Shown: positions 3,704 through 13,167 of the stretch, piece by piece
How the letters are laid out: every line of letters begins with the position of its first letter
Position numbering within the stretch: position 1 is the first letter of the stretch
Virus record (IMG/VR): IMGVR_UViG_3300037384_000074
Span: 1-20,111 of that record
Source: a virus
Taxonomy: Duplodnaviria; Heunggongvirae; Uroviricota; Caudoviricetes
Direction: 5' to 3' (one strand)
DNA: 20,111 nt
Notes under the pieces: generated by a model
What the model was told of the DNA's origin: nothing
Database searches by the model: none
What the model saw: the letters and a program-made list of their open reading frames with translations, nothing else
Translations under genes and position numbers: made by a program

Positions 3704-4230
3704 CAGAAGAAGAAGCTAAATTTGCTGACCTGCAGAACCAATTCCTCGCTAATATGGAATTGGTTCACTTTGATCAGTTCAATTATGAGTGTGAAAAGGC
3801 AATATTTGATGATACTCAGGGAGCGTTCTCAAATGCCCTGAGTATCACGCGACACAACCTTAAGATTGGATCACTTGCCGCAAATCAGGTAGGATACGAT
3901 CGACGAGTAATCAGTATTGCTGGTATTGACGGTTGTCTTTTCAACCCAGTCTTAGTATATTCATCTGAGGATACTTCCGTTCTGGATGAGGTCAATGTCT
4001 CATATCCAGGACTTAAGGTTAAGATCAAGAGATCGAACACGATTCGTATCCGATATCAGACATTTAATGGTGAGCGAGTTGCTCAGACATATAATGGGCT
4101 TACAGCTCGAGCGATCCTACATGCAATAGATCAGTTGGATGGGGTCTGCTTTATCAATAGAGCAAATAGAATTCACCGCGAACGTGCATTACGTCAATGG
4201 AAAAGGTTTAATAAGCACAATGCAGCCTAA
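3700..4230 (+). CDS. Peptide deformylase homologue, predicted catalytically inactive
   Basis: PDF fold motifs LAANQVG, FNP, SYPG, KIKR, TARAIL..ID.LDG are recognisable. EGCLS reads EVNVS and HEXDH reads HAIDQ. Confidence 0.8.
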   Translation: MTEEEAKFADLQNQFLANMELVHFDQFNYECEKAIFDDTQGAFSNALSITRHNLKIGSLAANQVGYDRRVISIAGIDGCLFNPVLVYSSEDTSVLDEVNVSYPGLKVKIKRSNTIRIRYQTFNGERVAQTYNGLTARAILHAIDQLDGVCFINRANRIHRERALRQWKRFNKHNAA

Positions 4231-4873
4231 GTATAGATCTACCAAGCGATACGGCCATAATCAGGGTCTATCATCCACATTCCGTCAGTGGCGCGCTGAA
4301 GGAACACACTGTAAACTGATTCATGGATATGCACTATCTGTTGAACTAGAATTTGGCACCAATGAACTAGATGAGCGGAATTGGGTTCAAAATTTTGGAG
4401 GTCTCAAGGAAGTCAAGAACTATCTTACTTGGCTTCTTGACCACACTACTGTGGTTGCAGAAGACGATCCTGAAATCGATACTTTCTATGAACTTGATGA
4501 AAAGGGATTGATTGCTCTACGTGTGATCCCTGATGTTGGATGTGAGAAGTTTGCCGAACACATCTTCTATGCAACACTTGCGCTGCTTGATATGAATATT
4601 GTCTCAGATCGAGTTAAGTTGATGTCCGTTCGAGTATGGGAACATGAAGCTAATTCAGCGAGCTTTATCAATCCAATTCTAGACCTACCGGAAGCATCTA
4701 GAAACTGGATCGGTAGTCTTCACAACGCGTTTAAGCAGAATCGTGCACTATTCACTGCTCGAGATTATGAGGTTCTCGATCCTAAGCAATGGGAATCTGA
4801 TATTGAAGTTGCAATCGACCCAGTATCTGCACTAATCGTTGACTACGGTAGGATTGCAGGAGATCTTGACTGA
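4220..4873 (+). CDS. queD: 6-carboxy-5,6,7,8-tetrahydropterin synthase
   Basis: CKLIHGY (CxxxHGH variant), WVQNFGGLK, LDHT, GCEKFAE, VWEHEANSA. Start at ATG 4220, overlapping the PDF end. Confidence 0.88.
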   Translation: MQPKYRSTKRYGHNQGLSSTFRQWRAEGTHCKLIHGYALSVELEFGTNELDERNWVQNFGGLKEVKNYLTWLLDHTTVVAEDDPEIDTFYELDEKGLIALRVIPDVGCEKFAEHIFYATLALLDMNIVSDRVKLMSVRVWEHEANSASFINPILDLPEASRNWIGSLHNAFKQNRALFTARDYEVLDPKQWESDIEVAIDPVSALIVDYGRIAGDLD

Positions 4874-6276
4874 TGTTTGGTCTGAATACTATTGTCGGGA
4901 AATCATACTTTAAAGATGCCGGCGAAAAACTTTACGTAACTTCAATCTTTTATTCAATCCAAGGGGAAGGGCCTCTACGAGGACGTTCGGCAGTATTTGT
5001 TCGACTCGCAAAGTGCAATCTTGGATGCTCGTGGTGTTTCCATGGAAACACTTGGATAACGATGTCAAACGGTTCACGTAAGCGGATTAAGGACATCAAG
5101 ATTGGTGATGAGGTGGTGTCATGGAATGAAGATGCTAATCGATTCGAATCTAAAAAGGTAAGTTATGTTCATCCTACACGTCATGTGGATGAAATCATCC
5201 GACTTCGTACGGGCAAAAGCAACAATCCTAACGAATTAGTATATGTGACAAAGGAACATCCATTCCTTGTAAAAAATAAGGGTTGGGTCAAGGCTGGCGA
5301 TTTGCAGGAAGGTGATGTTCTTCTTCACTTCTCACCATCGGATCGAATGACAATATCCGAATTCATCCATAATGGTGATACCGTTACTAGTGTTGAAGTA
5401 ATTCAGAAGCCAACATCATTTAGTGGCTCCGACGGTAAGGCATGGATCAGACTTGCAGGCGGATCTAAGGATATCGAAGTATACAACTTTGAAACTGAAG
5501 ATAACCACACATATGTTGCAAATGGTAAAATTGTTCATAACTGTGATGCTTTCTTCGAAGATGGGGATTGGCTAACAATTCCTGAAATTATCGAACGAGC
5601 GGGTAAGGAAATCGACAAATATTTCGAGAATCTAGGCAGGGAGACTCCGGATTGGGCTAGTAATAGTGAAAACAGTTGCCGGGAAATTGCGTTCATCCTT
5701 ACTGGCGGCGAACCTACATTGCAGAAGATCAAAGATCTTCTCAATTGGGCATCACTAGAATATAAGTGGACTCAGATTGAATCGAACGGCATTCTCGAGC
5801 CATTAGTCCCTGACAGTACAATTGTAGTAGTATCTCCAAAGTGCATGGAAAAGGTTGACGTTTCCGAAGGGTTTAAGCGTTATATTCCAACTGGATATCT
5901 CAATCCGAACCCGAAGACTCTTGAACGCGCAAGTGTTCTCAAGTTTGTGATGGAAGATCAGCCAGATTTTGACTCTCCTTATCAGACTGTACCTGAGTGG
6001 GCTCATCAGTGGCGTCGAGATACTGGTCGAGATGTTTACGTTTCACCGATGAATATCTATAATCGTGAGCCTAAGAAAGCCCAAGAGATTCGTTCGGGCA
6101 AGAATAAAGCAAGTCTAGAAGAGCGGTCTCTCTATGATGAAGTTGTGTCATTTTGGGAGCCTGGATTGTTTGATATGGAAGCCAACCAACGGAACCATGA
6201 ACATGCTGGCAACTATGCTATCCAGCATGGATTCATATTCCAAATGCAGTTACATCTCTTCTGCTCGAAAGCGTAA
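4873..6276 (+). CDS. queE: 7-carboxy-7-deazaguanine synthase (radical SAM) containing an intein
   Basis: YSIQGEG...FVRLAKCNLGCSW|intein|CD, LTGGEP, IESNG, VVSPK and C-terminal QMQLH. The spliced product would be 298 aa. Confidence 0.9.
   Translation: MFGLNTIVGKSYFKDAGEKLYVTSIFYSIQGEGPLRGRSAVFVRLAKCNLGCSWCFHGNTWITMSNGSRKRIKDIKIGDEVVSWNEDANRFESKKVSYVHPTRHVDEIIRLRTGKSNNPNELVYVTKEHPFLVKNKGWVKAGDLQEGDVLLHFSPSDRMTISEFIHNGDTVTSVEVIQKPTSFSGSDGKAWIRLAGGSKDIEVYNFETEDNHTYVANGKIVHNCDAFFEDGDWLTIPEIIERAGKEIDKYFENLGRETPDWASNSENSCREIAFILTGGEPTLQKIKDLLNWASLEYKWTQIESNGILEPLVPDSTIVVVSPKCMEKVDVSEGFKRYIPTGYLNPNPKTLERASVLKFVMEDQPDFDSPYQTVPEWAHQWRRDTGRDVYVSPMNIYNREPKKAQEIRSGKNKASLEERSLYDEVVSFWEPGLFDMEANQRNHEHAGNYAIQHGFIFQMQLHLFCSKA
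5035..5541 (+). mobile_element. Mini-intein (169 aa, no endonuclease domain) in QueE
   Basis: Begins CFHGNTWITM (block A), TKEHPF (block B TxxH), VYNFETEDNHTYVAN (block F), ends IVHN followed by the +1 Cys. Removal restores CxxxCxxC. Confidence 0.95.
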
Positions 6277-6362
6277 AATAATACATGATGTCACAATACC
6301 CTGAAATGAACATTAACTTGAGGGATTGGTACATCCCTCCTCCGCCACCTAAGAAAGAACAA

Positions 6363-7082
6363 ATGTCAAACAACACATCAAACAATACTCCAAGTATTTC
6401 CGAGACAATCACTGAACGTATGGTCAATAAGGGCCATCGCTTCTGGGCAAGTGATAACGTATCAGACTTCATATACGATGATGAAGAGAAGCAGGCTCTA
6501 ATCGATGAAGCAACCGCTAAGTTCGAAGCTGTGTTGGATAGTCTATTGATTGATAGGCACAATGACCCGAACAGTAGAGATACTGGTCGTCGCATGGCGA
6601 AGATGTATATCAACGAGCTGTTCGAAGGGCGATTTACTCCTCCTCCAAAGATCACAGCATTTCCAAACGATGACGTTGAAACTCGTTTTGCTGGAATGTT
6701 GATTGCAACGGCTGAACTGAAGTCGATGTGTTCGCATCATCATGCCCCAGTAACAGGCAAGGCTTGGATCGGTATTCTTCCTTCAACGAAGGTTATTGGT
6801 CTCAGCAAGTATGCTCGTTTAGCTCAGTGGTATGCTCGCCGAGGAACTCTTCAGGAAGAGTTGACAAAACAGATCGCTGACGGTATTCAGAAGCATACTG
6901 GATCACAAGATCTCGCTGTCGTTGTTGTCGCTGAACATGGTTGCTGCACAAATCGTGGAATTATGGCAAACGATAGCTCAACATGGACGAGTGTATTGCG
7001 TGGCCAGTTCTTCAATCCATCCGTGAAACAGGAATTTTTTAACCTGATTCAGGGCGGCCTTAACAAGTTCCAGTGTAATTGA
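6363..7082 (+). CDS. folE: GTP cyclohydrolase I
   Basis: DPNSRDTGRRMAKMY, CSHH zinc ligands, GLSKYARL, LQEELT, EHGCCTNRG. The start is uncertain: the ORF is open from 6285, but ATG 6363 is preferred because the upstream part is a hairpin/poly-Pro tract. Confidence 0.92.
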   Translation: MSNNTSNNTPSISETITERMVNKGHRFWASDNVSDFIYDDEEKQALIDEATAKFEAVLDSLLIDRHNDPNSRDTGRRMAKMYINELFEGRFTPPPKITAFPNDDVETRFAGMLIATAELKSMCSHHHAPVTGKAWIGILPSTKVIGLSKYARLAQWYARRGTLQEELTKQIADGIQKHTGSQDLAVVVVAEHGCCTNRGIMANDSSTWTSVLRGQFFNPSVKQEFFNLIQGGLNKFQCN

Positions 7083-7089
7083 GGGAATT

Positions 7090-7437
7090 ATGAGATTCAT
7101 TTACGTTAAGTTTCAGCGCGAGGGGATTCACTGTTATCCCCTCGCTGGCACCGATCCTAAGTTGGCTGATGTGAGCTTTCTAGCTCATCCACATCGCCAT
7201 ATGTTCTGGTTCGAAGTATGTATTGAAGTGTTTCATCAAGATCGCGATCTGGAATTTATCCAATTTAAGCGTTGGCTTGAAAGACTTTATAGTCAGGATA
7301 TTCTCGAGCTTGATAATCAGTCTTGCGAGATGATTGCTGATTCCTTGATGGAAAAGATCCAGGAACGATATCCAAATCGTTGTATTCAGATTGACGTGTC
7401 TGAAGATGGCGAGAACGGAGCTATCGTTACAAACTAA
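7090..7437 (+). CDS. dpdL: QueD-paralogue T-fold protein, DpdL-like (putative CDG decarboxylase)
   Basis: FLAHPHRHMF matches LxxxHRHxF; RDLEFIQFK and SCEMIA...VSEDGENGA are QueD-like; sits directly after folE with its own GAGGG RBS. The motif assignment is recalled from the phage deazaguanine literature. Confidence 0.7.
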   Translation: MRFIYVKFQREGIHCYPLAGTDPKLADVSFLAHPHRHMFWFEVCIEVFHQDRDLEFIQFKRWLERLYSQDILELDNQSCEMIADSLMEKIQERYPNRCIQIDVSEDGENGAIVTN

Positions 7438-7443
7438 TAAATA
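7436..7443 (+). promoter_or_regulatory. T4-type late promoter (AATAAATA)
   Basis: One mismatch to TATAAATA, immediately before ATGATG at 7445; no RBS in between, so the mRNA is probably leaderless. Confidence 0.55.
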
Positions 7444-7444
7444 G

Positions 7445-8038
7445 ATGATGACTCCATTCGCTCAATTTATTACAGAAGATACTTACACTTCGTGGGTATT
7501 CAAATTAGATATGTCGTTCGAGAATCGTTTCTACACGTATCTTGAACGTAATCTGTGGGGATTTCGCGGAATATCTAGAGCGTTTACTTCGACTGGACCG
7601 GTCGCTCGTAAGAACGAGGGGATTGAGTCCTTTAGAGATAAACACTCTACGGGCAATTACGATTCAATCCAATTATATCTAAGCAAAAATTTGACTTTCT
7701 CGTTTGGAGTTTTACCTAACGGATTGATAGTTTGTTATGATTTGGTCGGAGATGGTGCTTGGATATCTCCGACCAAAATGACATTGAGACAGCTTGTTGC
7801 TGATCTACAAGAATTCGGATTCGGCAAGCCAAAAATGACTCGTGAAAAGGCTGATCCTAACCCGTTCAAAATTGGAAATTTGGTTCGGTTTAGAGAAGGT
7901 AATAAATCACATATCATATATAAGGTCACTAAACTTGAAGGTGATATTGTATATGGATACGACGTTACGAAAAGTCCGGACGTGAAATATTTCCCTGATG
8001 TCCTAATGGCGCATCATTCTCGTCTGATCAAGAGTTGA
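7445..8038 (+). CDS. Hypothetical protein with a capsid-targeting-like N-terminus and a C-terminal SH3/KOW-like segment
   Basis: 197-aa ORF beginning M(M)TPFAQFITE; C-terminal FKIGNLVRF...YKVTKLEGDIVY beta-rich pattern. Confidence 0.7.
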   Translation: MMTPFAQFITEDTYTSWVFKLDMSFENRFYTYLERNLWGFRGISRAFTSTGPVARKNEGIESFRDKHSTGNYDSIQLYLSKNLTFSFGVLPNGLIVCYDLVGDGAWISPTKMTLRQLVADLQEFGFGKPKMTREKADPNPFKIGNLVRFREGNKSHIIYKVTKLEGDIVYGYDVTKSPDVKYFPDVLMAHHSRLIKS

Positions 8039-8068
8039 CATCTATCGACGTTCATAGGATGATAAATA
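8035..8068 (+). promoter_or_regulatory. Overlapping sigma70-like (TTGACA-17-GATGAT) and late (GATAAATA) promoters
   Basis: TTGACA 8035-8040, GATGAT 8058-8063, GATAAATA 8061-8068, upstream of the GGAG RBS of the 8088 ORF. Confidence 0.5.
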
Positions 8069-8087
8069 TCATCAACTGGAGATCTAG

Positions 8088-8276
8088 ATGATGAAGTCCT
8101 ATGATGAATATCTCGTGGAGTCGAAGAACCGTCAAACTGAAATGCATGATTGGATTGCAAATCAGGTTGACAACACTGAGAAAGCTCACGACGAAATTAA
8201 GAAAGAATTCCTGAAGAAGTACGGAGCGAAAAACGCAAAGTTCTTCGATAAGGTAGTCAGCGAAATCGTTGACTGA
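8088..8276 (+). CDS. Small hypothetical protein with a capsid-targeting-like N-terminus
   Basis: 62 aa; GGAG RBS at 8078-8081; begins M(M)KSYDEYLVE; predicted helical and charged. Confidence 0.75.
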   Translation: MMKSYDEYLVESKNRQTEMHDWIANQVDNTEKAHDEIKKEFLKKYGAKNAKFFDKVVSEIVD

Positions 8277-8404
8277 AATATACGACCTGCCACGCCTCTG
8301 ACGCAAGCGCACCAGGTGGGTCCCTTATAAGTGAAATGACACGGCTAGCCCCTCTGCACTAAGGTGTACGGGCAAGTCTTCTATTTAAATATGAAAGACT
8401 AACA

Positions 8405-9289
8405 TTGCTAAACTTTTGCGCTATCTGCCCAACCCCTCATCTCGATCTGGTGAAGGGTCGGAAGGCCAATCTAACATTGGCACATCTGGTCGATACTGAC
8501 CCTGAATACCGTGAATGGTATAAGAACAATCCCACTGAAATCCACATCATGGATAATTCTGCATTTGAGTTGAATCAGCAGGGATTGCCGTTATTTGATG
8601 GCAATCGTCTTGACGATCTAGCTTTGTCGGTGGGTGCAAACTACGTTGTAATGACAGATGCTCCTGGCCAGTCATCTGATGTTACAGAAAACTTTGCTCG
8701 ATTTCAAGGTAAGAGACTCAAGAGTAAGGGACTAGGTACCTTCTTTGTGCCTCAGAGTTACCGCGGCAAGATCGGCGACTTGATCAATTCATTCATCTGG
8801 GGACTAACTAATCCCGACATCGACTATGTTGCTCTAAGCATCCTATCTGCTCCAAATGCATTCACTCGTTCAGACATTTCAGATAATGCTAAAATGATGA
8901 CAAGGTATCTTTCTCGATATCATTTCATGCGATTGCTTGAAAAGGAAATCAAGGAAGAGTTTGGAATTAGTGCGAGATCTCTGAAAGAAAAGCATAACAA
9001 GAAGATCCATTTTCTTGGGATGACCGAAGGTCCCAACGAAATTGAACTAATGTCACACGTTGACATCCCAATTGACACATGGGATAGTAGTGCTCCGATG
9101 TGGTATGGTCTTCGTGGTCGTAAACGATTTGACCCTAATTCGGTTACTGGTTTGCCAGACGGCAAGTATACTGAACATGTCGATTTTAACTATAGAACAA
9201 ATATCGAGGAGGCTAGAAATATAGCTCTCGACAACCTCGAATATATTGACAACTTAGTACAGGACTATAATGACAGAGTCAACCCTTGA
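8405..9289 (+). CDS. dpdA: TGT/DpdA-like TIM-barrel deazaguanine transferase (subfamily uncertain, DpdA3-like suspected)
   Basis: IMDNSAFE (TGT DSGGFQ-like), KIHFLG, DTWDSSAP (archaeal TGT DxFDS-like); located within the folE/queD/queE cluster. Confidence 0.72.
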   Translation: MLNFCAICPTPHLDLVKGRKANLTLAHLVDTDPEYREWYKNNPTEIHIMDNSAFELNQQGLPLFDGNRLDDLALSVGANYVVMTDAPGQSSDVTENFARFQGKRLKSKGLGTFFVPQSYRGKIGDLINSFIWGLTNPDIDYVALSILSAPNAFTRSDISDNAKMMTRYLSRYHFMRLLEKEIKEEFGISARSLKEKHNKKIHFLGMTEGPNEIELMSHVDIPIDTWDSSAPMWYGLRGRKRFDPNSVTGLPDGKYTEHVDFNYRTNIEEARNIALDNLEYIDNLVQDYNDRVNP

Positions 9290-10145
9290 TAAGGGTCTCG
9301 ATTGAGACCCAATCGGAATCTGTTAACCTCACTGAGCATGGAAATTCAGGTACCATTTTTCCAGTTCTTCGAAATATTTTCTGACGTATAGCTCCAGGAC
9401 TTACCTTTAGGTGTTTAGCCAAATCTGGAAACACTTTGAAAGATATAATACTTCTACTAGAAGTATTATATAGAATCAGGTTGTGATTAGAATTTTCACG
9501 TTTGAAAGTTCTCGACCATTCACTGAATAATTTACGTGATTCGAGAGTTTTCTTGTGGTCACTATTAATAGGATGAGGCTTTCCTAGCCGAGATAGACGA
9601 ATATTCTCTCGTCGTTCAGCAGAACAGGGTCCCCTAGGCTTTCGTAGTTTTGATTTTGATTCTTCCGATCGAAGTCTGCTAGTGTTTGGTTTGAAACCGT
9701 TCTCGATAAGAAAGCAAATTCGATCCAAATCATTAACATTACAATTTGTTAGTTTGTCGGAAACTTCATTATAGAATTTTATTCTCTTTTGACCCCTTGT
9801 GGGATGATTGATTGTGAAGTTTTCGCGATACATGCGTCTTGCAATATCATATGTTGTTGCATTACTATATCTCAACATTCCTGTTGAGGAACAATTCATC
9901 ATTGCTAAAGCTTTTACCATTTGGAAATATTCTCTAGTATTAGGAATTAGCATTTTAACTAGTAAACGATGGGCGATGTAATGTTCTTTTGCTGTAAACT
10001 TAACTAAGTTCGATAAATCGTTAGATCCACCCATCGATTTAGGAATAATATGATGTCGCTCATGGTAACGGCTTTCAGTGGTTTTAATTGATCTAGACGT
10101 ACAGAGATCAAAATAGAATTTAGTGTATTTGTTAGCTAAAAACAT
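9279..10145 (-). mobile_element. Free-standing HNH homing endonuclease with NUMOD3-like repeats (Mob-like)
   Basis: ERHHIIPKSMGGSNDLSNLVKFTAKEHYIAHRLL HNH motif; RSEESKSKL and SAERRENI NUMOD3-like segments; antisense to its neighbours and AT-rich. Confidence 0.88.
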
Positions 10146-10171: not shown

Positions 10172-10450
10172 TTGAATATTTATAAATTTAAAGAGGACGA
10201 AGTACTTAGAGAGGTAGCAGAATATCTTGAAAAGACTTATAAATCTCATTACGTAGACAATAATAATCGTCAATTGATGGAAGATATTGTTGATGAAGGC
10301 GATGCTATTCCATTTTGTAGATGGAATAGCATCAAGTACCTTAGGCGATATGGTAAAAAGAATGGATTCAATAGGGATGACCTTTTGAAATCCTTACACT
10401 ATTGTATTATTATGCTTGGTGTAACAAAAGATAATAAACCTCACAATTAA
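10172..10450 (+). CDS. DUF3310-family protein (T7 gp1.7-like putative dNMP kinase)
   Basis: YKFKE...HY...FCRWNSIKYLRRYGKKNG...DLLKSLHY matches the DUF3310 GNxxKYxxRxxxK...DLxKAxxY pattern; AAGGAG RBS. Confidence 0.75.
   Translation: MNIYKFKEDEVLREVAEYLEKTYKSHYVDNNNRQLMEDIVDEGDAIPFCRWNSIKYLRRYGKKNGFNRDDLLKSLHYCIIMLGVTKDNKPHN
10177..10184 (-). promoter_or_regulatory. T4 late promoter TATAAATA for the minus-strand HNH gene
   Basis: Plus strand reads TATTTATA inside DUF3310 codons 2-5; about 32 nt upstream of the HNH ATG at 10145. Confidence 0.65.
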
Positions 10451-10546: not shown

Positions 10547-10569
10547 ATATCTCGAAGGAGAATTTATGT
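10541..10569 (+). promoter_or_regulatory. RBS-sequestering hairpin with an embedded late promoter (CATAAATA 10542-10549)
   Basis: GCATAAAT(A)TCTC-GAAG-GAGA-ATTTATGT forms a 12-bp stem with one bulge that covers the GGAG RBS and the start of the GTG codon. Confidence 0.75.
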
Positions 10570-11209
10570 GGCAAATTATCGAAAAATCTGGGAAGAAGCT
10601 AATGGGCCCATTCCGGTAGACGACAGTGGACGAAGTTTCGAGATCCATCATATAGATGGTGATAGAGAGAACAACGCAATAGATAATCTTCAATGCGTTA
10701 GTGTGTTCGACCACTTCTTTATTCATCATGAAAAGGGCGATGTTGCTGCTTGTCTTTTGATGATATATCGTCTTGAAATGGAAGATGACCCACTTTTCAA
10801 AATTTTGAAATCGGAGATATCGAGAGAGTCAAATCGTAGACGACTGGCTAATGGAACGCATAATTTTCTGAAACCTGAACATCATCACAAAGTTAAGGTC
10901 ACCCAGAAAAGATTGTATAGTGAAGGTAAACACCATTTTTGTAATGGGCAGACTGAAAGGGGTCAGAAGTCGGCTCAGTCACGTTTCAAAATGTGGAAGT
11001 CTGGAACAGATGATGAATTCTTTAGCCTCCTAGGAGGATATAAGTTATATCGTACATTTAGACTCAAAAATGGAAAAATGCATCAAGCCCCGAGTAGTAT
11101 AGTGATGCAGGCAATTAATTACCGGTTTGATGGCGAAGAAAGTAAAGTTGTCGCTGCGATTCAACGAATATACGGAACAGATGATTACACATATTCTATC
11201 GGAAAATAG
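10568..11209 (+). mobile_element. Free-standing HNH homing endonuclease, I-TevIII-like
   Basis: N-terminus NYRKIWEEANGPIPVDDSGRSFEIHHIDGDRENNAIDNL closely resembles I-TevIII as recalled; has NGTHNFL and EGKHHFC repeats; GTG start after a GAAGGAG RBS. Confidence 0.88.
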
Positions 11210-11699
11210 TACCAGTAAGATCCTCAAAGAGGAAATCAATCCTAAAGATTGCCAGCCAAATGCTATTGATCTGAGACTTGACCAGGTCTTTAGAGTTGAA
11301 CCTACGATGTTTGCTTTGACCGAGGACAACAAGGTTAATCGTGAACGAGTATTGATTGAGCCAAACGTGCTCGAGATCTATCATCTCCCGAAGGGTGTTT
11401 ACGAAATCACTTTCGATTCGGAAGTGGATATTGGTAGTGACGAAGCGGGACTGATTGTTCCGCGCAGCACACTTAACAGGAACGGCGTTTTCATCACTTC
11501 TGGTCTTTGGGATTCAGGGTATAATGGCGTTCTTGGTGCAGCATTGCACAATTATGGCGGCCCAATGCTTGTGAAGCGTGGAACTCGCCTAGCTCAGCTC
11601 GTCATTTGGAAGGCTGAATCACTATTCGATTACAAGGGACAGTATGGTCGCAATGAAGACGGAACTGCTAAAGAAGAAGAGAAGAGATATCATGTATAA
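11181..11699 (+). CDS. dut: Trimeric dUTPase / dCTP-deaminase-family protein
   Basis: QPNAIDLRL, PRSTLNRNG, WDSGYNG, GTRLAQL, YKGQYG. Start placed at ATG 11181 (MITHIL). The deaminase Glu appears absent (VLGAALHN), which favours dUTPase activity. Confidence 0.8.
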   Translation: MITHILSENSTSKILKEEINPKDCQPNAIDLRLDQVFRVEPTMFALTEDNKVNRERVLIEPNVLEIYHLPKGVYEITFDSEVDIGSDEAGLIVPRSTLNRNGVFITSGLWDSGYNGVLGAALHNYGGPMLVKRGTRLAQLVIWKAESLFDYKGQYGRNEDGTAKEEEKRYHV

Positions 11700-12297
11700 T
11701 TTTGAAATGCCACGGCTCAATGGTTGGGCCAATGAGATCTACTCAAATAACGTCAACGCGGGTTGGTGGAAGAAGGATATCGATGGCCTTGTCATCCCAC
11801 GTAATGTTGGTGAGCTTTTAGCTCTTGTTCACTCGGAAGTATCTGAAGCTCATTTTGGCCTAACAGGGCCAGGTGTAGTGTACGATGATCATCTTACTCA
11901 TCGTGAGATGTACGAAGTTGAAATGGCAGATGCAGTAATTCGCATTCTTGATATTACCGGCCATTACCGGATTGACGTCGACGCAGTCATCTCGGAATAT
12001 GAGACTCATTACGACGGTCGTTGGGTCATGTCGTCACTTACTGAGCAGATCGCTTACATCCACACTGAGATCTCTAATGCTCTTGAAGGAGCTCGTAAGA
12101 ATGCTCCAAGTAAGATCATTCCTTCTCGTACTGCTTTTGAAGTTTCACTTGCCGCAACTCTAGTACGTATCATCCACACTTGTGATGATCAGAATCTTGA
12201 CCTTATGGGGGCTCTTCAGGAGAAGTTCAACTATAACAAGAGTCGAGCTGATCACAAGTTGGAAAATCGTGCTGCCGCAGGTGGCAAGCAGTTTTGA
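11692..12297 (+). CDS. MazG-like nucleotide pyrophosphohydrolase with an internal tandem duplication
   Basis: Repeat 1: LALVHSEVSEA...EVEMADAVIRILD. Repeat 2: IAYIHTEISNA...EVSLAATLVRIIH. C-terminal EKFNYNKSR. Start at ATG 11692. Confidence 0.8.
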   Translation: MYNFEMPRLNGWANEIYSNNVNAGWWKKDIDGLVIPRNVGELLALVHSEVSEAHFGLTGPGVVYDDHLTHREMYEVEMADAVIRILDITGHYRIDVDAVISEYETHYDGRWVMSSLTEQIAYIHTEISNALEGARKNAPSKIIPSRTAFEVSLAATLVRIIHTCDDQNLDLMGALQEKFNYNKSRADHKLENRAAAGGKQF

Positions 12298-12306
12298 GGT
12301 AAGCCA

Positions 12307-13167
12307 ATGTCAGAACTTAACAAAGGCAAGCTCAAATTTGATGTAGATATCCCACGTCTACAGCAGACTGGCATTTTCGTAATGACACCAATGTATGGTG
12401 GACTCAATTACGGAGGATACTCCAAGAGTCTTATGTCTCTTGCAGTGATGTGTAACCAGTTTGGTATCCCTTTTCACGTATATTTCATGTATAATGAAAG
12501 CCTAATTCCACGGGCTCGTAATATGTGTTCGGATGCATTCATCCGTTCTGAGCAGAATATCGGCGTCTTTATTGACGCCGATATTGAATTTACTCCTCAG
12601 GATGTGTTAATCATGTCCGACATTATGCTCAAGAATGGTTATGACGTATTTTGCGGTGCATATCCTAAGAAGAATATCTCTTGGGAGAAGATCGTAGATG
12701 CAGTCAATGCGGGTGCTGGTGATGATAACCCTGAAAACCTTGAGAATTTCGTCGGCGATTATGTAGTCAATTGGTTACATGAAGGTAAAGTAGACCTATT
12801 AAAGCCTGTGGAAATTGCTGAAGGCGGCACTGGATTCATGTTCTTCCATAAGGATACGCTGATCAAGTATCGTGACGCATTTCCAGATCAGTCATATATC
12901 CCAGATCATCCTAGAACAAAGGATTTCGATGGCAGTCGAGAGATCCACGCATTTTTCGATTGTATTATCGACCCAGATACCAGACGATATCTATCAGAAG
13001 ATTATTTCTTTTGTAGAAGAGTCCGTCAGGCTGGCATGAAGGTATGGCTCGCACCTTGGGTATCACTTAAGCATACTGGCACATATACTTTTGGCGGCTC
13101 ATTGATTGCACTGTCCACCATTAATGCTAATGCAACTGCCGATCCAAAAAGGTTGAAGAAGAAGTGA
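12307..13167 (+). CDS. GT-A fold (GT2-like) glycosyltransferase
   Basis: TPMYGG, ESLIPRARN, FIDADI (DxD), GTGFM, YLSEDYFFC, HTG motifs. Confidence 0.8.
   Translation: MSELNKGKLKFDVDIPRLQQTGIFVMTPMYGGLNYGGYSKSLMSLAVMCNQFGIPFHVYFMYNESLIPRARNMCSDAFIRSEQNIGVFIDADIEFTPQDVLIMSDIMLKNGYDVFCGAYPKKNISWEKIVDAVNAGAGDDNPENLENFVGDYVVNWLHEGKVDLLKPVEIAEGGTGFMFFHKDTLIKYRDAFPDQSYIPDHPRTKDFDGSREIHAFFDCIIDPDTRRYLSEDYFFCRRVRQAGMKVWLAPWVSLKHTGTYTFGGSLIALSTINANATADPKRLKKK

What the first reader, a model, noticed from the sequence alone, without database searches (positions are those of the whole stretch)
4220..9289. 7-deazaguanine DNA modification cluster with a DpdL-like paralogue and no QueC, predicting a dDG (or CDG) genome
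Seen: queD, queE, folE, a second T-fold gene with LxxxHRHxF in place of CxxxHGH, and a TGT-like barrel, all co-oriented; no QueC, QueF or Gat-QueC motif in the window. Established: FolE-QueD-QueE make CDG from GTP. In the phage deazaguanine literature (Hutinet 2019, Cui 2023, as recalled), DpdL is proposed to decarboxylate CDG to 7-deazaguanine, and T4-like phages with divergent DpdA3 can replace G extensively. Inference: this phage carries dDG, possibly at all G positions, as an anti-restriction measure.
Basis: partly seen in the sequence, partly recalled or inferred. Interest (0 to 1): 0.8.

Follow-up and report, generated by a model that had tools for sequence, protein, structure and literature searches.

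The report
Phage 7-deazaguanine DNA module, DpdA3 type
An uncultured T4-like phage carries the known gene set that swaps guanine in phage DNA for 7-deazaguanine; one enzyme gene is split by a self-splicing intein, and a dedicated kinase and nucleotide hydrolase alongside hint that the swap happens on free nucleotides rather than on finished DNA.

Summary
QueD, QueE, FolE, a DpdL homologue and a TGT-fold protein lie co-oriented at 4220-9289. No QueC, QueF or Pfam-type TGT is found in the 136-kb contig, which is about 75% complete, or in the complete relatives that share the synteny.

The 115-aa gene is a clear DpdL: 57% identical to ACP17 DpdL, 34% to phiST DpdL, with the motif LAHPHRHMF. The 294-aa gene is a divergent DpdA3. 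After its orthologue, its closest viral fold match is phiST DpdA3 (TM 0.73/0.82), and the profile match scores 41 bits. As in phiST, where dDG was measured, the predicted product is dDG. This is a new member of a known kind (Cui et al. 2023).

- QueE is interrupted inside its CxxxCxxC iron-sulfur motif by a 169-aa mini-intein. An intein-less allele about 96% identical exists.
- The module extends to about 11.7 kb. A DUF3310 gene (the T7 gp1.7 kinase domain) is fused to DpdA3 in relatives, and a dCTP-deaminase/dUTPase-fold gene always follows.
- Homing-endonuclease genes and late head-protein genes interrupt the module.

Unrelated kinase types occupy the same position in other DpdA3 phages. That argues for nucleotide-level replacement. 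This scan noted the same hint earlier on other DNA (e1-5382264).

The parts
4220..4873 (+). QueD (6-carboxytetrahydropterin synthase), phage type with a CxxxHGY motif and a roughly 65-aa C-terminal extension
   Evidence: PF01242 E 1.3e-13 and phrog_2389 E 2e-35. It is 44% identical to phiST QueD, which has the same HGY variant. The start at 4220 matches the gene call in the near-identical relative L091.
4873..6276 (+). QueE precursor (radical-SAM CDG synthase), 467 aa. N-extein 4873-5034, intein 5035-5541, C-extein 5542-6276; the spliced product would be 298 aa.
   Evidence: phrog_2076 E 1.7e-41 and QueE NCBIfam models on both exteins. The extein-only sequence aligns end to end with the intein-less QueE of RHph_I1_18 at 68% and with the 298-aa allele P0270, 285 of 297 columns identical.
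5035..5541 (+). Mini-intein of 169 aa with no endonuclease domain, inserted as CNLGCSW|C...VHN|CD. The third Cys of the CxxxCxxC cluster motif is the +1 residue.
   Evidence: PF14890 and PF07591; TIGR01445 at 28.6 bits and TIGR01443 at 27.6 bits, both above cut-off. C1, TKEH (block B) and HN+C are read. 53 of 54 intein-bearing QueE homologues have their insert at the same site.
6285..7082 (+). FolE (GTP cyclohydrolase I) with a low-complexity N-terminal extension
   Evidence: PF01227 E 2.2e-40, 138.5 bits; phrog_2197 E 2e-47. The zinc motifs CSHHH and HGCC are present.
7090..7437 (+). DpdL (QueD paralogue; proposed 7-carboxy-7-deazaguanine decarboxylase)
   Evidence: phrog_17812 E 1e-33. tblastn gives 61.6% to RHph_I1_18, 56.6% to ACP17 and 33.6% to phiST. 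BLASTP against phiST CGPG_00067 gives E 5e-17. H14, H35, H37, H49, E55, E80 and E105 are invariant in the alignment.
7445..8276 (+). Interruption that is not part of the pathway: two small ORFs (7445-8038 and 8088-8276) with T4 internal-protein-like N-termini
Evidence: No Pfam, PHROG or NCBIfam match of note. The 197-aa ORF has no tblastn hit in any of the 83 related loci.
8405..9289 (+). DpdA3-like transglycosylase: TGT-fold TIM barrel of 294 aa, TTG start, no Cys among the invariant columns (so no TGT-type zinc site), acidic (pI 5.5)
   Evidence: AlphaFold pLDDT 93.8. The listed PDB matches are all TGT or ArcTGT. BFVD rank 2 is phiST DpdA3: E 2.3e-13, TM 0.73/0.82. The family HMM hits phiST DpdA3 at 41 bits, MA9V-3 at 45 and BSTP10 at 40. 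Invariant residues include D50-N-S, D85, P116-Q, H202xLGM and W226-D-S-S.
9279..10145 (-). HNH homing-endonuclease gene inserted between the DpdA3-like and DUF3310 genes
   Evidence: phrog_655 E 2e-32 and PF01844. In 76 of 76 related loci DUF3310 follows DpdA3-like directly, with a median gap of 32 nt.
10172..10450 (+). DUF3310 protein (92 aa), the domain of the T7 gp1.7 nucleotide kinase; candidate kinase for the modified nucleotide
   Evidence: PF11753 at 26.2 bits (cut-off 24). T7 gp1.7 has PF11753 as its only Pfam domain, 81.5 bits. It is fused to the C-terminus of DpdA3-like in RHph_I1_18, P0123, P0125, P0127 and P0135. It is absent genome-wide from the module-less backbone relatives DLP_6 and Cr30.
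10568..11209 (+). Second HNH endonuclease gene, an insertion
   Evidence: PF13392 E 1.8e-12 and phrog_12324 E 6e-31. It has no counterpart in the related loci.
11127..11699 (+). dCTP-deaminase/dUTPase-fold protein; candidate dNTP pyrophosphatase of the module
   Evidence: PF22769 at 66 bits and PF00692 at 42 bits. The best PDB match is a probable dUTPase, 9w59. It follows DUF3310 in 71 of 71 related loci. It is the only DCD-fold gene in the contig and in RHph_I1_18, and DLP_6 and Cr30 have none. Ahp1 has a second copy elsewhere.
11644..12297 (+). MazG-like pyrophosphatase, specific to this window; link to the module uncertain
   Evidence: phrog_5658 E 4e-57. No hit in any of the 83 related loci.

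Best explanation
This is a phiST-type 7-deazaguanine (dDG) genome-modification module set in the replication region of an uncultured T4-like phage.

Pathway, inferred from established chemistry:
- FolE converts GTP to H2NTP.
- QueD makes CPH4.
- QueE makes 7-carboxy-7-deazaguanine (CDG). QueE can be active only after its intein splices out, because the intein separates the third cysteine of the iron-sulfur motif from the first two.

Inferred by homology only:
- DpdL removes the carboxyl group to give 7-deazaguanine.
- The DpdA3-like transglycosylase exchanges guanine for this base.
- Virion DNA therefore carries dDG in place of most or all dG, and this blocks restriction enzymes.

The module does not end at 9289. 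A DUF3310 protein (T7 gp1.7 kinase domain) and a dCTP-deaminase/dUTPase-fold protein belong to it.

The stage of the swap is open. My odds are about 45% for the nucleotide pool, 35% for finished DNA as published, and the rest for other or mixed routes. The nucleotide-pool route would run as follows: the NTPase makes dGMP, DpdA3 swaps the base, the kinase rephosphorylates, and the polymerase incorporates the product.
For: Gene identities rest.

The same five-gene set without QueC is what phiST carries, and its DNA was measured as fully dDG (PMC10516641). QueC is absent from the contig. It is also absent from five complete DpdL-positive phages, including the syntenic RHph_I1_18.

The intein boundaries are shown by an intein-less allele of exactly the predicted 298 aa.

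Evidence for the module's extent:
- Compared with the backbone relatives DLP_6 and Cr30 (PDF, then p1574, then gp45), the insert runs from QueD to the DCD-fold gene.
- Those two genomes lack DUF3310 and DCD-fold genes altogether.

Evidence for the nucleotide-level lean:
- A kinase of a different family sits beside DpdA3 in each lineage. These are DUF3310 here (sometimes fused), T4-gp1-type DNMK in Ahp1 and D479, and an AAA_18 P-loop kinase in phiST and MA9V-3.
- Ahp1 keeps a second, canonical DNMK and a second DCD-fold gene elsewhere.
- An unrelated non-T4 contig again has DUF3310 by the module.
- Another contig has a dGTP-diphosphohydrolase-like gene by the module.
Against: No chemistry was done here. 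The phage is uncultured and the contig is about 75% complete, so a QueC or another tailoring gene could lie in the missing quarter.

DpdL and DpdA3 activities have never been reconstituted. phiST and ACP17 genes gave no dDG in E. coli.

The window protein is only about 18% identical to phiST DpdA3, so its substrate could differ.

Against the nucleotide-level lean:
- All characterised TGT/DpdA enzymes act on polynucleotides.
- The DCD-fold gene may simply be the phage's dUTPase; it is the only one in the contig.
- Most of the synteny counts come from related T4-like contigs and are not independent.
- Three of six sampled diverse DpdA3 neighbourhoods showed no recognisable kinase or NTPase.
- An earlier unchecked note (e1-1717480) reports DUF3310 between gp45 and gp46 in a phage and mentions no Que genes.
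Confidence: 0.7

Rival explanations
1. The published model applies unchanged. DpdA3-like is a DNA transglycosylase that replaces G after replication. The adjacent DUF3310 and DCD-fold genes are ordinary nucleotide-metabolism genes (such as a dUTPase) that sit nearby only because this is the replication and nucleotide region of a T4-like genome.
For: [quoted passage not shown] The fold is that of enzymes acting on polynucleotides. The DCD-fold gene is the only dUTPase-like gene in the contig and in RHph_I1_18. Its best solved match is a probable dUTPase.
Against: The kinase slot next to DpdA3 is filled by at least three unrelated kinase families in different lineages, and by gene fusion in several. 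Ahp1 has housekeeping copies of both DNMK and a DCD-fold gene elsewhere. Backbone relatives without the module lack both gene types. DpdA3 plus DpdL alone gave no dDG in E. coli.
Confidence: 0.35
2. The end product is not plain dDG. Either DpdL is not a decarboxylase and the DNA carries dCDG, or host QueC or an undetected phage gene in the missing 25% of the genome takes CDG on to preQ0- or ADG-type bases.
For: DpdL's function is only predicted. The contig is 75% complete. DpdA3-type genes also occur with QueC in other phages: BSTP10 has Gat-QueC, and contig L097 has QueC next to DpdA3. D479 has a partial QueC-family hit far from its module.
Against: phiST, with the same five genes, has dDG and no dCDG. 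The DpdA3 phages with QueC that were checked across the whole record (BSTP10) lack DpdL. The complete syntenic relative RHph_I1_18 has no QueC. The 10 kb upstream of QueE in a near-identical phage holds only T4 core genes.
Confidence: 0.15
3. The genes are an auxiliary metabolic set for host tRNA queuosine or folate metabolism and have nothing to do with phage DNA.
For: FolE, QueD and QueE are the first steps of queuosine synthesis (established pathway).
Against: Without QueC the tRNA pathway stops at CDG. The TGT-fold protein is DpdA3-like, gives no match to the Pfam tRNA-TGT model and has no Cys among its invariant columns, so no TGT-type zinc site. DpdL occurs only in phage records, always beside these synthesis genes in the loci examined.
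Confidence: 0.03

Closest known systems
dDG system of Cellulophaga phage phiST (FolE, QueD, QueE, DpdL, DpdA3; Cui, Hutinet et al., NAR 2023, PMC10516641)
   Same: It has the same five functions and no QueC. The DpdL signature LxxxHRHxF is shared, and so is the QueD variant CxxxHGY. DpdA3 is the nearest non-orthologous fold match. A kinase and an NTP pyrophosphatase lie inside the cluster.
   Different: The host phage is T4-like rather than a Cbastvirus. DpdA3 is about 18% identical and 35 aa longer. The kinase is DUF3310 (T7 gp1.7 type) rather than an AAA_18 P-loop kinase. The NTPase is dUTPase/DCD-fold rather than MazG. QueE carries an intein. Homing endonucleases and late genes interrupt the cluster.
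Module of Rhizobium phage RHph_I1_18 (MN988519; annotated only as hypothetical or DUF3310 proteins)
   Same: It has the same backbone and gene order, from gp46 and PDF through QueD, QueE, FolE, DpdL, DpdA3-like, DUF3310 and the DCD-fold gene to p1574 and gp45. Identities are 40-69%.
   Different: DpdA3-like and DUF3310 are one fused 422-aa protein. QueE has no intein. Different inserts are present (an endonuclease VII gene and a macro-domain gene). It is a cultured phage, so it is the practical stand-in for chemistry.
Phage T4 hydroxymethylcytosine pathway (gp56 dCTPase, gp42 dCMP hydroxymethylase, gp1 dNMP kinase)
   Same: Working analogy for the nucleotide-level reading. An NTPase removes the canonical dNTP and supplies the dNMP, an enzyme alters the base on the dNMP, and a dedicated kinase returns it to the pool. 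In Ahp1 the kinase beside DpdA3-like is itself a second gp1-type DNMK.
   Different: It concerns a different base (C, not G). It modifies the existing base rather than exchanging the whole base. There is no homology between gp42 and DpdA3. The analogy has not been tested.
DpdA1/DpdA2/bDpdA preQ0-type DNA transglycosylases
   Same: They belong to the TGT superfamily and carry out base exchange of G for a 7-deazaguanine.
   Different: Those enzymes go with QueC and insert preQ0-type bases at 0.1-30% of G in sequence motifs. No Pfam TGT match is found here. No Cys is invariant, so there is no TGT-type zinc site. The associated genes differ.

Membership tests
DpdL (Cui et al. 2023) | Small QueD-like T-fold paralogue homologous to phiST CGPG_00067 | tested here: met
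   BLASTP against phiST CGPG_00067 gives 33% identity, E 5e-17, over the full length. It is 56.6% identical to ACP17 DpdL. phrog_17812 gives E 1e-33, with a faint QueD phrog_2389 hit.
DpdL (Cui et al. 2023) | LxxxHRHxF in place of QueD's CxxxHGH; conserved His and Glu ligands | tested here: met
   The motif reads L31AHPH35RH37MF39. H14, H35, H37, H49, E55, E80 and E105 are invariant in 10 sequences.
DpdL (Cui et al. 2023) | Occurs with FolE, QueD, QueE and a DpdA but without QueC | tested here: met
   This holds in the 136-kb contig, which is only about 75% complete. It also holds in the complete relatives RHph_I1_18, Ahp1, Bakedbeans, MA9V-3 and phiST.
DpdL (Cui et al. 2023) | CDG decarboxylase activity | not testable with these tools
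   The activity is unproven even for the type protein; heterologous expression gave no dDG.
DpdA3 subfamily of TGT/DpdA | TGT-type TIM-barrel fold | tested here: met
   The model has pLDDT 93.8. All 50 listed PDB matches are TGT or ArcTGT, E 4e-8 to 5e-7, TM about 0.55-0.63.
DpdA3 subfamily of TGT/DpdA | Closer to phiST CGPG_00065 than to other DpdA or TGT groups | tested here: met
   In BFVD, phiST M4SLA5 ranks second after the orthologue, with E 2.3e-13 and TM 0.73/0.82; annotated phage TGTs follow at E 1e-7 or worse. The family HMM scores 41 bits on phiST DpdA3, 45 on MA9V-3 and 40 on BSTP10. Pairwise BLASTP alone is not significant. No tree against DpdA1, DpdA2 and DpdA4 was built.
DpdA3 subfamily of TGT/DpdA | Complete replacement of G in virion DNA; transglycosylase activity | not testable with these tools
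   This needs LC-MS of virion DNA and enzyme assays. DpdA3 has not been reconstituted.
QueE (radical-SAM CDG synthase) | Contiguous CxxxCxxC cluster motif and a SAM-binding GGEP motif | tested here: inconclusive
   The motif CNLGCSW/C is split by the intein and becomes contiguous only after splicing. GGEP is present. The intein-less allele P0270 has the intact motif. Splicing itself was not tested.
Canonical class-1 intein | Cys1, block B TxxH, C-terminal HN followed by a +1 Cys/Ser/Thr; Hint-domain HMM matches | tested here: met
   C55, TKEH, and VHN223 followed by C224. TIGR01445 and TIGR01443 score above cut-off; PF14890 and PF07591 match. The empty-site allele has exactly the predicted length.
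QueD (CPH4 synthase) | CxxxHGH zinc and catalytic motif | tested here: not met
   The motif is CKLIHGY: the catalytic Cys and the first His are kept, and the second His is Tyr. phiST QueD and most syntenic phage QueDs have the same variant, while BSTP10 has HGH. The protein is a member of the phage QueD-like family phrog_2389. Whether it is equivalent to bacterial QueD rests on phiST making dDG.
T7 gp1.7-type nucleotide kinase | DUF3310 (PF11753) domain | tested here: met
   It scores 26.2 bits against a cut-off of 24. T7 gp1.7 scores 81.5 bits on the same model.
T7 gp1.7-type nucleotide kinase | Full-length similarity to gp1.7 and kinase activity | tested here: inconclusive
   The protein has only 92 aa against 196 in gp1.7. 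BLASTP aligns 68 residues to the C-terminal part of gp1.7, E 0.003. Activity was not tested.

The most novel reading that the evidence does not exclude
DpdA3-type enzymes are not DNA transglycosylases but nucleotide-level base exchangers, converting dGMP plus 7-deazaguanine to dDGMP. Together with a dedicated dNTP pyrophosphatase (DCD/dUTPase fold or MazG) and a dedicated, interchangeable kinase (DUF3310, gp1-type DNMK or an AAA_18 kinase), they form a pre-replicative pathway for total replacement of G. This would be the purine counterpart of T4's gp56/gp42/gp1 route to hmC. It would contradict the published post-replicative model and explain why DpdA3 plus DpdL alone failed in E. coli. It would also give DUF3310 a defined role.
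Probability: 0.45. Interest if true: 0.8.

Novelty: new member of a known kind. Interest (0 to 1): 0.55.

Why it matters
Total replacement of guanine by 7-deazaguanine has been measured in only a few phage isolates.

This window shows the same gene set fixed in a large lineage of T4-like phages. At least 479 IMG/VR contigs encode the DpdA3-like protein. The wider family has about 1,670 clusters at 50% identity and no Pfam model. G-less DNA may therefore be common in nature. That matters for restriction and CRISPR evasion and for biases in metagenome sequencing.

The gene context offers a concrete, testable alternative to the published mechanism: base exchange on nucleotides, followed by a dedicated kinase. 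The cultured Rhizobium phage RHph_I1_18 is a practical system for testing it.

The QueE intein sits in the iron-sulfur motif and has a natural empty-site allele. This is a clean case of intein mobility in a phage DNA-modification enzyme.

Tried and rejected
- **Nucleotide search.** Megablast of 4100-9300 against 50,697 phage records found nothing.
- **Direct sequence tests of the TGT-like gene.** Pfam, NCBIfam and PHROGs gave no hit for 8405-9289. A profile search of PDB sequences gave only chance hits. Pairwise BLASTP against phiST DpdA3 was not convincing. Fold and profile evidence were needed.
- **Complex prediction.** The DpdA3-like plus DUF3310 job returned no verdict (score 0.00). It counts neither for nor against binding.
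- **Supplements.** The supplementary tables of Cui et al. are not held. I could not check whether RHph_I1_18 or this DpdA3-like clade is already in their list.
- **Glycosyltransferase-like gene 12307-13167 (phrog_1574).** I considered it as part of the module, prompted by earlier scan notes about sugar transferases travelling with DpdL, and rejected it for this window. It has homologues in 61 phage records against 4 for DpdA3-like. It sits next to gp45 in DLP_6 and Cr30, which lack the module.
- **The 197-aa ORF at 7445-8038.** Rejected as a pathway enzyme: it has no family hits and is absent from all related loci.
- **RNA features.** Rfam, ARAGORN and folding of the 8270-8410 spacer found nothing.
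- **Sequencing runs.** The search gave only the probable source run and small shares in one other study. It was not used for habitat.
- **Isoelectric point.** The family is acidic (median pI 5.5). This is too weak to argue about the substrate.
- **Literature.** Searches found no paper on QueE inteins, on DUF3310 function, or on a nucleotide-level DpdA3 route. The library is incomplete, so this does not prove absence.

Full report
**Setting.** The window is the first 20 kb of a linear 136,484-bp IMG/VR viral contig that CheckV rates about 75% complete. The genes are those of a T4-like replication region. In order they are:
- gp55 late sigma factor, gp47, gp46 and peptide deformylase;
- the cluster under study;
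- a GT-A-like gene (phrog_1574), the gp45 clamp, the gp44/gp62 clamp loader and RegA.

Nucleotide search against 50,697 phage records finds nothing, so all comparisons are at protein level.

**Observation.**
- QueD, 4220-4873: PF01242 51 bits, phrog_2389 E 2e-35.
- QueE, 4873-6276: phrog_2076 E 1.7e-41.
- FolE, 6285-7082: PF01227 138 bits.
- A 115-aa protein, 7090-7437: phrog_17812 E 1e-33, no Pfam hit.
- A 294-aa protein, 8405-9289: no hit in Pfam, NCBIfam or PHROGs.

QueC, QueF and Pfam TGT models find nothing anywhere in the contig. The QueC search rang in all 14 control genomes, the TGT search in all 14 and the QueF search in 8.

The QueD motif is CKLIHGY, not CxxxHGH; phiST QueD and most syntenic phage QueDs share this variant. 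QueE is not a plain gene (see the intein section below).

**DpdL.** Cui, Hutinet et al. (PMC10516641) measured complete replacement of dG by dDG in Cellulophaga phage phiST. That phage has FolE, QueD and QueE but no QueC.
- They named CGPG_00067 DpdL, a proposed CDG decarboxylase in which LxxxHRHxF replaces QueD's CxxxHGH.
- They named CGPG_00065 DpdA3.
- Neither activity could be reconstituted in E. coli.

The window protein is 33% identical to phiST DpdL over its full length (E 5e-17). It is 56.6% identical to the ACP17 gene those authors also tested. It carries LAHPHRHMF and the invariant His and Glu set. I file it as DpdL.

**The TGT-like gene.** An alignment of 28 homologues gave an AlphaFold model with pLDDT 93.8.
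- All 50 listed PDB matches are tRNA-guanine or archaeosine transglycosylases (E from 4e-8, TM about 0.6).
- Among viral models, the best match after the orthologue in Rhizobium phage RHph_I1_18 is phiST M4SLA5. This 259-aa protein is DpdA3 (E 2.3e-13, TM 0.73/0.82, 18% identity).
- A profile of the family scores 41 bits on phiST DpdA3, 45 on Chryseobacterium phage MA9V-3 DpdA3 and 40 on a Bacillus phage BSTP10 homologue.
- The same profile scores 282-355 bits on Vibrio phage D479, Aeromonas phage Ahp1 and Vibrio phage Bakedbeans.

It is therefore a divergent clade within or beside DpdA3. It has no invariant cysteine, so it has no TGT-type zinc site. Its conserved motifs are IxDNSxFE, FFxPQ, HxLGM and WDSS.

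The family is large and has no precomputed Pfam domain among the listed members:
- 1,208 relatives at 90% clustering;
- 1,670 clusters at 50% identity;
- at least 479 IMG/VR contigs.

**No QueC.** Because a quarter of the genome is missing, I checked relatives.
- Complete genomes with DpdL have no QueC match: RHph_I1_18 (same synteny), Ahp1, Bakedbeans, MA9V-3 and phiST.
- D479 has only a partial QueC-family hit 100 kb from its module.
- BSTP10 has Gat-QueC but no DpdL.
- A contig whose QueE is about 96% identical overall shows what lies upstream of the window's start: gp32, gp59, UvsY and UvsW, and no Que genes.

**Intein.** QueE is a 467-aa precursor.
- Hint and intein models match residues 55-223. 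Both NCBIfam intein-end models score above their cut-offs.
- The junctions read CNLGCSW|CFHG...IVHN|CDAFF, with block B TKEH.
- The intein therefore splits the CxxxCxxC iron-sulfur motif, and the third cysteine is the +1 splice nucleophile. I infer that QueE works only after splicing.
- The boundaries are confirmed by nature. A 298-aa allele (P0270) from another metagenome matches the joined exteins in 285 of 297 columns and has exactly the predicted length. The joined exteins also align end to end with RHph_I1_18 QueE at 68%.
- Of the 120 best QueE homologues, 54 carry an insert and 53 of these have it at this same site. Both mini and endonuclease-bearing forms occur.
- I found no paper describing QueE inteins.

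**Extent of the module.** In the T4-like relatives Stenotrophomonas phage DLP_6 and Caulobacter phage Cr30, peptide deformylase is followed almost directly by phrog_1574 and gp45. In this window and in RHph_I1_18, the stretch from QueD to a dCTP-deaminase/dUTPase-fold gene is inserted there.

Among 80 IMG/VR loci with enough flank:
- DpdL lies directly before the DpdA3-like gene in 73 of 75;
- a DUF3310 gene lies directly after it in 76 of 76, with a median gap of 32 nt;
- the DCD-fold gene comes next in 71 of 71.

These loci are related, so the counts are not independent. However, DLP_6 and Cr30 lack DUF3310 and DCD-fold genes genome-wide. In addition, DUF3310 is fused to the C-terminus of the DpdA3-like protein in RHph_I1_18 and in four further metagenomic proteins.

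In this window the adjacency is broken by mobile DNA. An HNH endonuclease gene on the opposite strand (9279-10145) lies between DpdA3-like and DUF3310. A second HNH gene (10568-11209) lies before the DCD-fold gene. Two small ORFs with T4 internal-protein-like N-termini lie between dpdL and the DpdA3-like gene, and relatives lack the larger one (lead from e1-5441292). The near-identical relative has other selfish genes instead: a NUMOD3 gene and an endonuclease VII gene.

**What the extra genes suggest.** DUF3310 is the only Pfam domain of the T7 gp1.7 nucleotide kinase (81.5 bits). The window protein passes the same model at 26.2 bits.

In other lineages a different kinase sits in the same place:
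- a T4 gp1-type dNMP kinase directly after the DpdA3-like gene in Ahp1 (64 bits) and D479 (36 bits);
- an AAA_18 P-loop kinase directly before DpdA3 in phiST and MA9V-3;
- a P-loop protein annotated as thymidylate kinase in BSTP10, which Pfam does not confirm.

Ahp1 also has a canonical full-length gp1 homologue and a second DCD-fold gene elsewhere, so the copies beside DpdA3 are extra.

An NTP pyrophosphatase is likewise always near: DCD fold here and in Ahp1, D479 and MA9V-3, and MazG in phiST.

I sampled six distant family members:
- a non-T4 contig again has DUF3310 by QueD, QueE, DpdL and DpdA3;
- one has a dGTP-diphosphohydrolase-like gene;
- one has a DCD gene;
- three show no recognisable kinase or NTPase.

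Non-orthologous replacement of a kinase at a fixed position is hard to explain if the base is exchanged only in finished DNA. It fits a route like T4's gp56/gp42/gp1. In that route the NTPase makes dGMP, DpdA3 swaps the base, the kinase returns the product to the pool, and the polymerase incorporates it. This is inference from context only. All characterised TGT/DpdA enzymes act on polynucleotides, and the DCD-fold gene could simply be the phage's dUTPase. This scan reached the same hint earlier on another genome (e1-5382264). My evidence comes from different loci but is of the same kind.

**What is not part of it.** The GT-A-like gene at 12307-13167 has homologues in 61 phage records, mostly without DpdA3-like. 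It sits by gp45 in module-less relatives. The sugar-bearing-deazapurine idea raised elsewhere in this scan therefore finds no support in this window. ACP17 and PA5oct do have a weak GT-B-like gene directly before DpdL, and PA5oct also has a phosphoribosyltransferase nearby. The MazG-like gene at 11644-12297 is specific to this window.

**Verdict.** This is a new member of the phiST-type dDG system in a widespread T4-like lineage.
- The predicted base is dDG (about 70%).
- Whether all G positions are replaced, and whether replacement is pre- or post-replicative, remains open. I lean slightly to the nucleotide pool.
- The complex prediction for DpdA3-like with DUF3310 gave no verdict and is not used.

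Noticed in passing
window 5035-5541; proteins P0270-P0389: The intein in the CxxxCxxC motif of QueE is common. 54 of the 120 best QueE homologues carry an insert, and 53 of them have it at this site, in both mini forms and forms with a homing endonuclease. An empty-site allele about 96% identical overall (98% over the C-extein) exists in another metagenome. I found no paper describing it.
   Followed up: partly
window 9279-10145 (-), 10568-11209 (+); L091 7617-8288 and 9456-10013: The module is a hot spot for selfish DNA. This phage has two HNH genes and an intein. Its near-identical relative instead has a NUMOD3 gene before PDF and an endonuclease VII gene between QueD and QueE. RHph_I1_18 has an endonuclease VII gene, and D479 has a homing endonuclease next to DpdL.
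   Followed up: partly
window 7445-8038 and 8088-8276: Two small ORFs begin MMTPFAQFITE and MMKSYDEYLVE, which resemble T4 capsid-targeting sequences. ATAAATA-like late-promoter boxes lie just upstream. They sit inside the modification cluster, and relatives lack the larger one.
   Followed up: partly
window 12307-13167: This GT-A-like gene (phrog_1574, with weak Glycos_transf_2 hits) is conserved directly upstream of gp45 in many T4-like phages of alphaproteobacteria, cyanobacteria and Pelagibacter. It is present whether or not they have deazaguanine genes. Its function is unknown.
   Followed up: partly
L002 (Aeromonas phage Ahp1) 8876-9978; record 210755-211375 and 85736-85918: Ahp1 has two gp1-type dNMP kinases and two DCD/dUTPase-fold genes. 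One of each lies directly after its DpdA3-like gene.
   Followed up: partly
L093 (Pseudomonas phage PA5oct) 4221-8606; L092 (ACP17) 4701-7000: In these DpdL-positive phages no DpdA3-like protein was detected. Only the two ORFs directly upstream of DpdL were scored with the family profile, and tblastn of the window protein hit neither record. DpdL is preceded by a large unknown protein and a weak GT-B-like glycosyltransferase. PA5oct also has a phosphoribosyltransferase and a truncated epimerase-like gene next to DpdL.
   Followed up: no
L085 (Bacillus phage BSTP10) 4899-5687 and its relatives BSTP5, BSTP8, BSTP12: A DpdA3-type gene is annotated variously as polynucleotide kinase, integrase/recombinase or NadR. 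It sits with Gat-QueC, QueD and FolE and next to a P-loop protein annotated as thymidylate kinase.
   Followed up: no
OZ195776.1 (Vibrio phage D479) 153872-154066: There is a partial QueC-family match (32.8 bits, C-terminal third of the model only) in a 278-aa ORF about 100 kb from the DpdL/DpdA3-like module. It may be a QueC-family protein with another role.
   Followed up: no
window 6285-6480: FolE has an N-terminal extension of about 65 aa with a PPPPP and Asn/Ser/Thr-rich low-complexity stretch. It is not covered by the FolE models.
   Followed up: no
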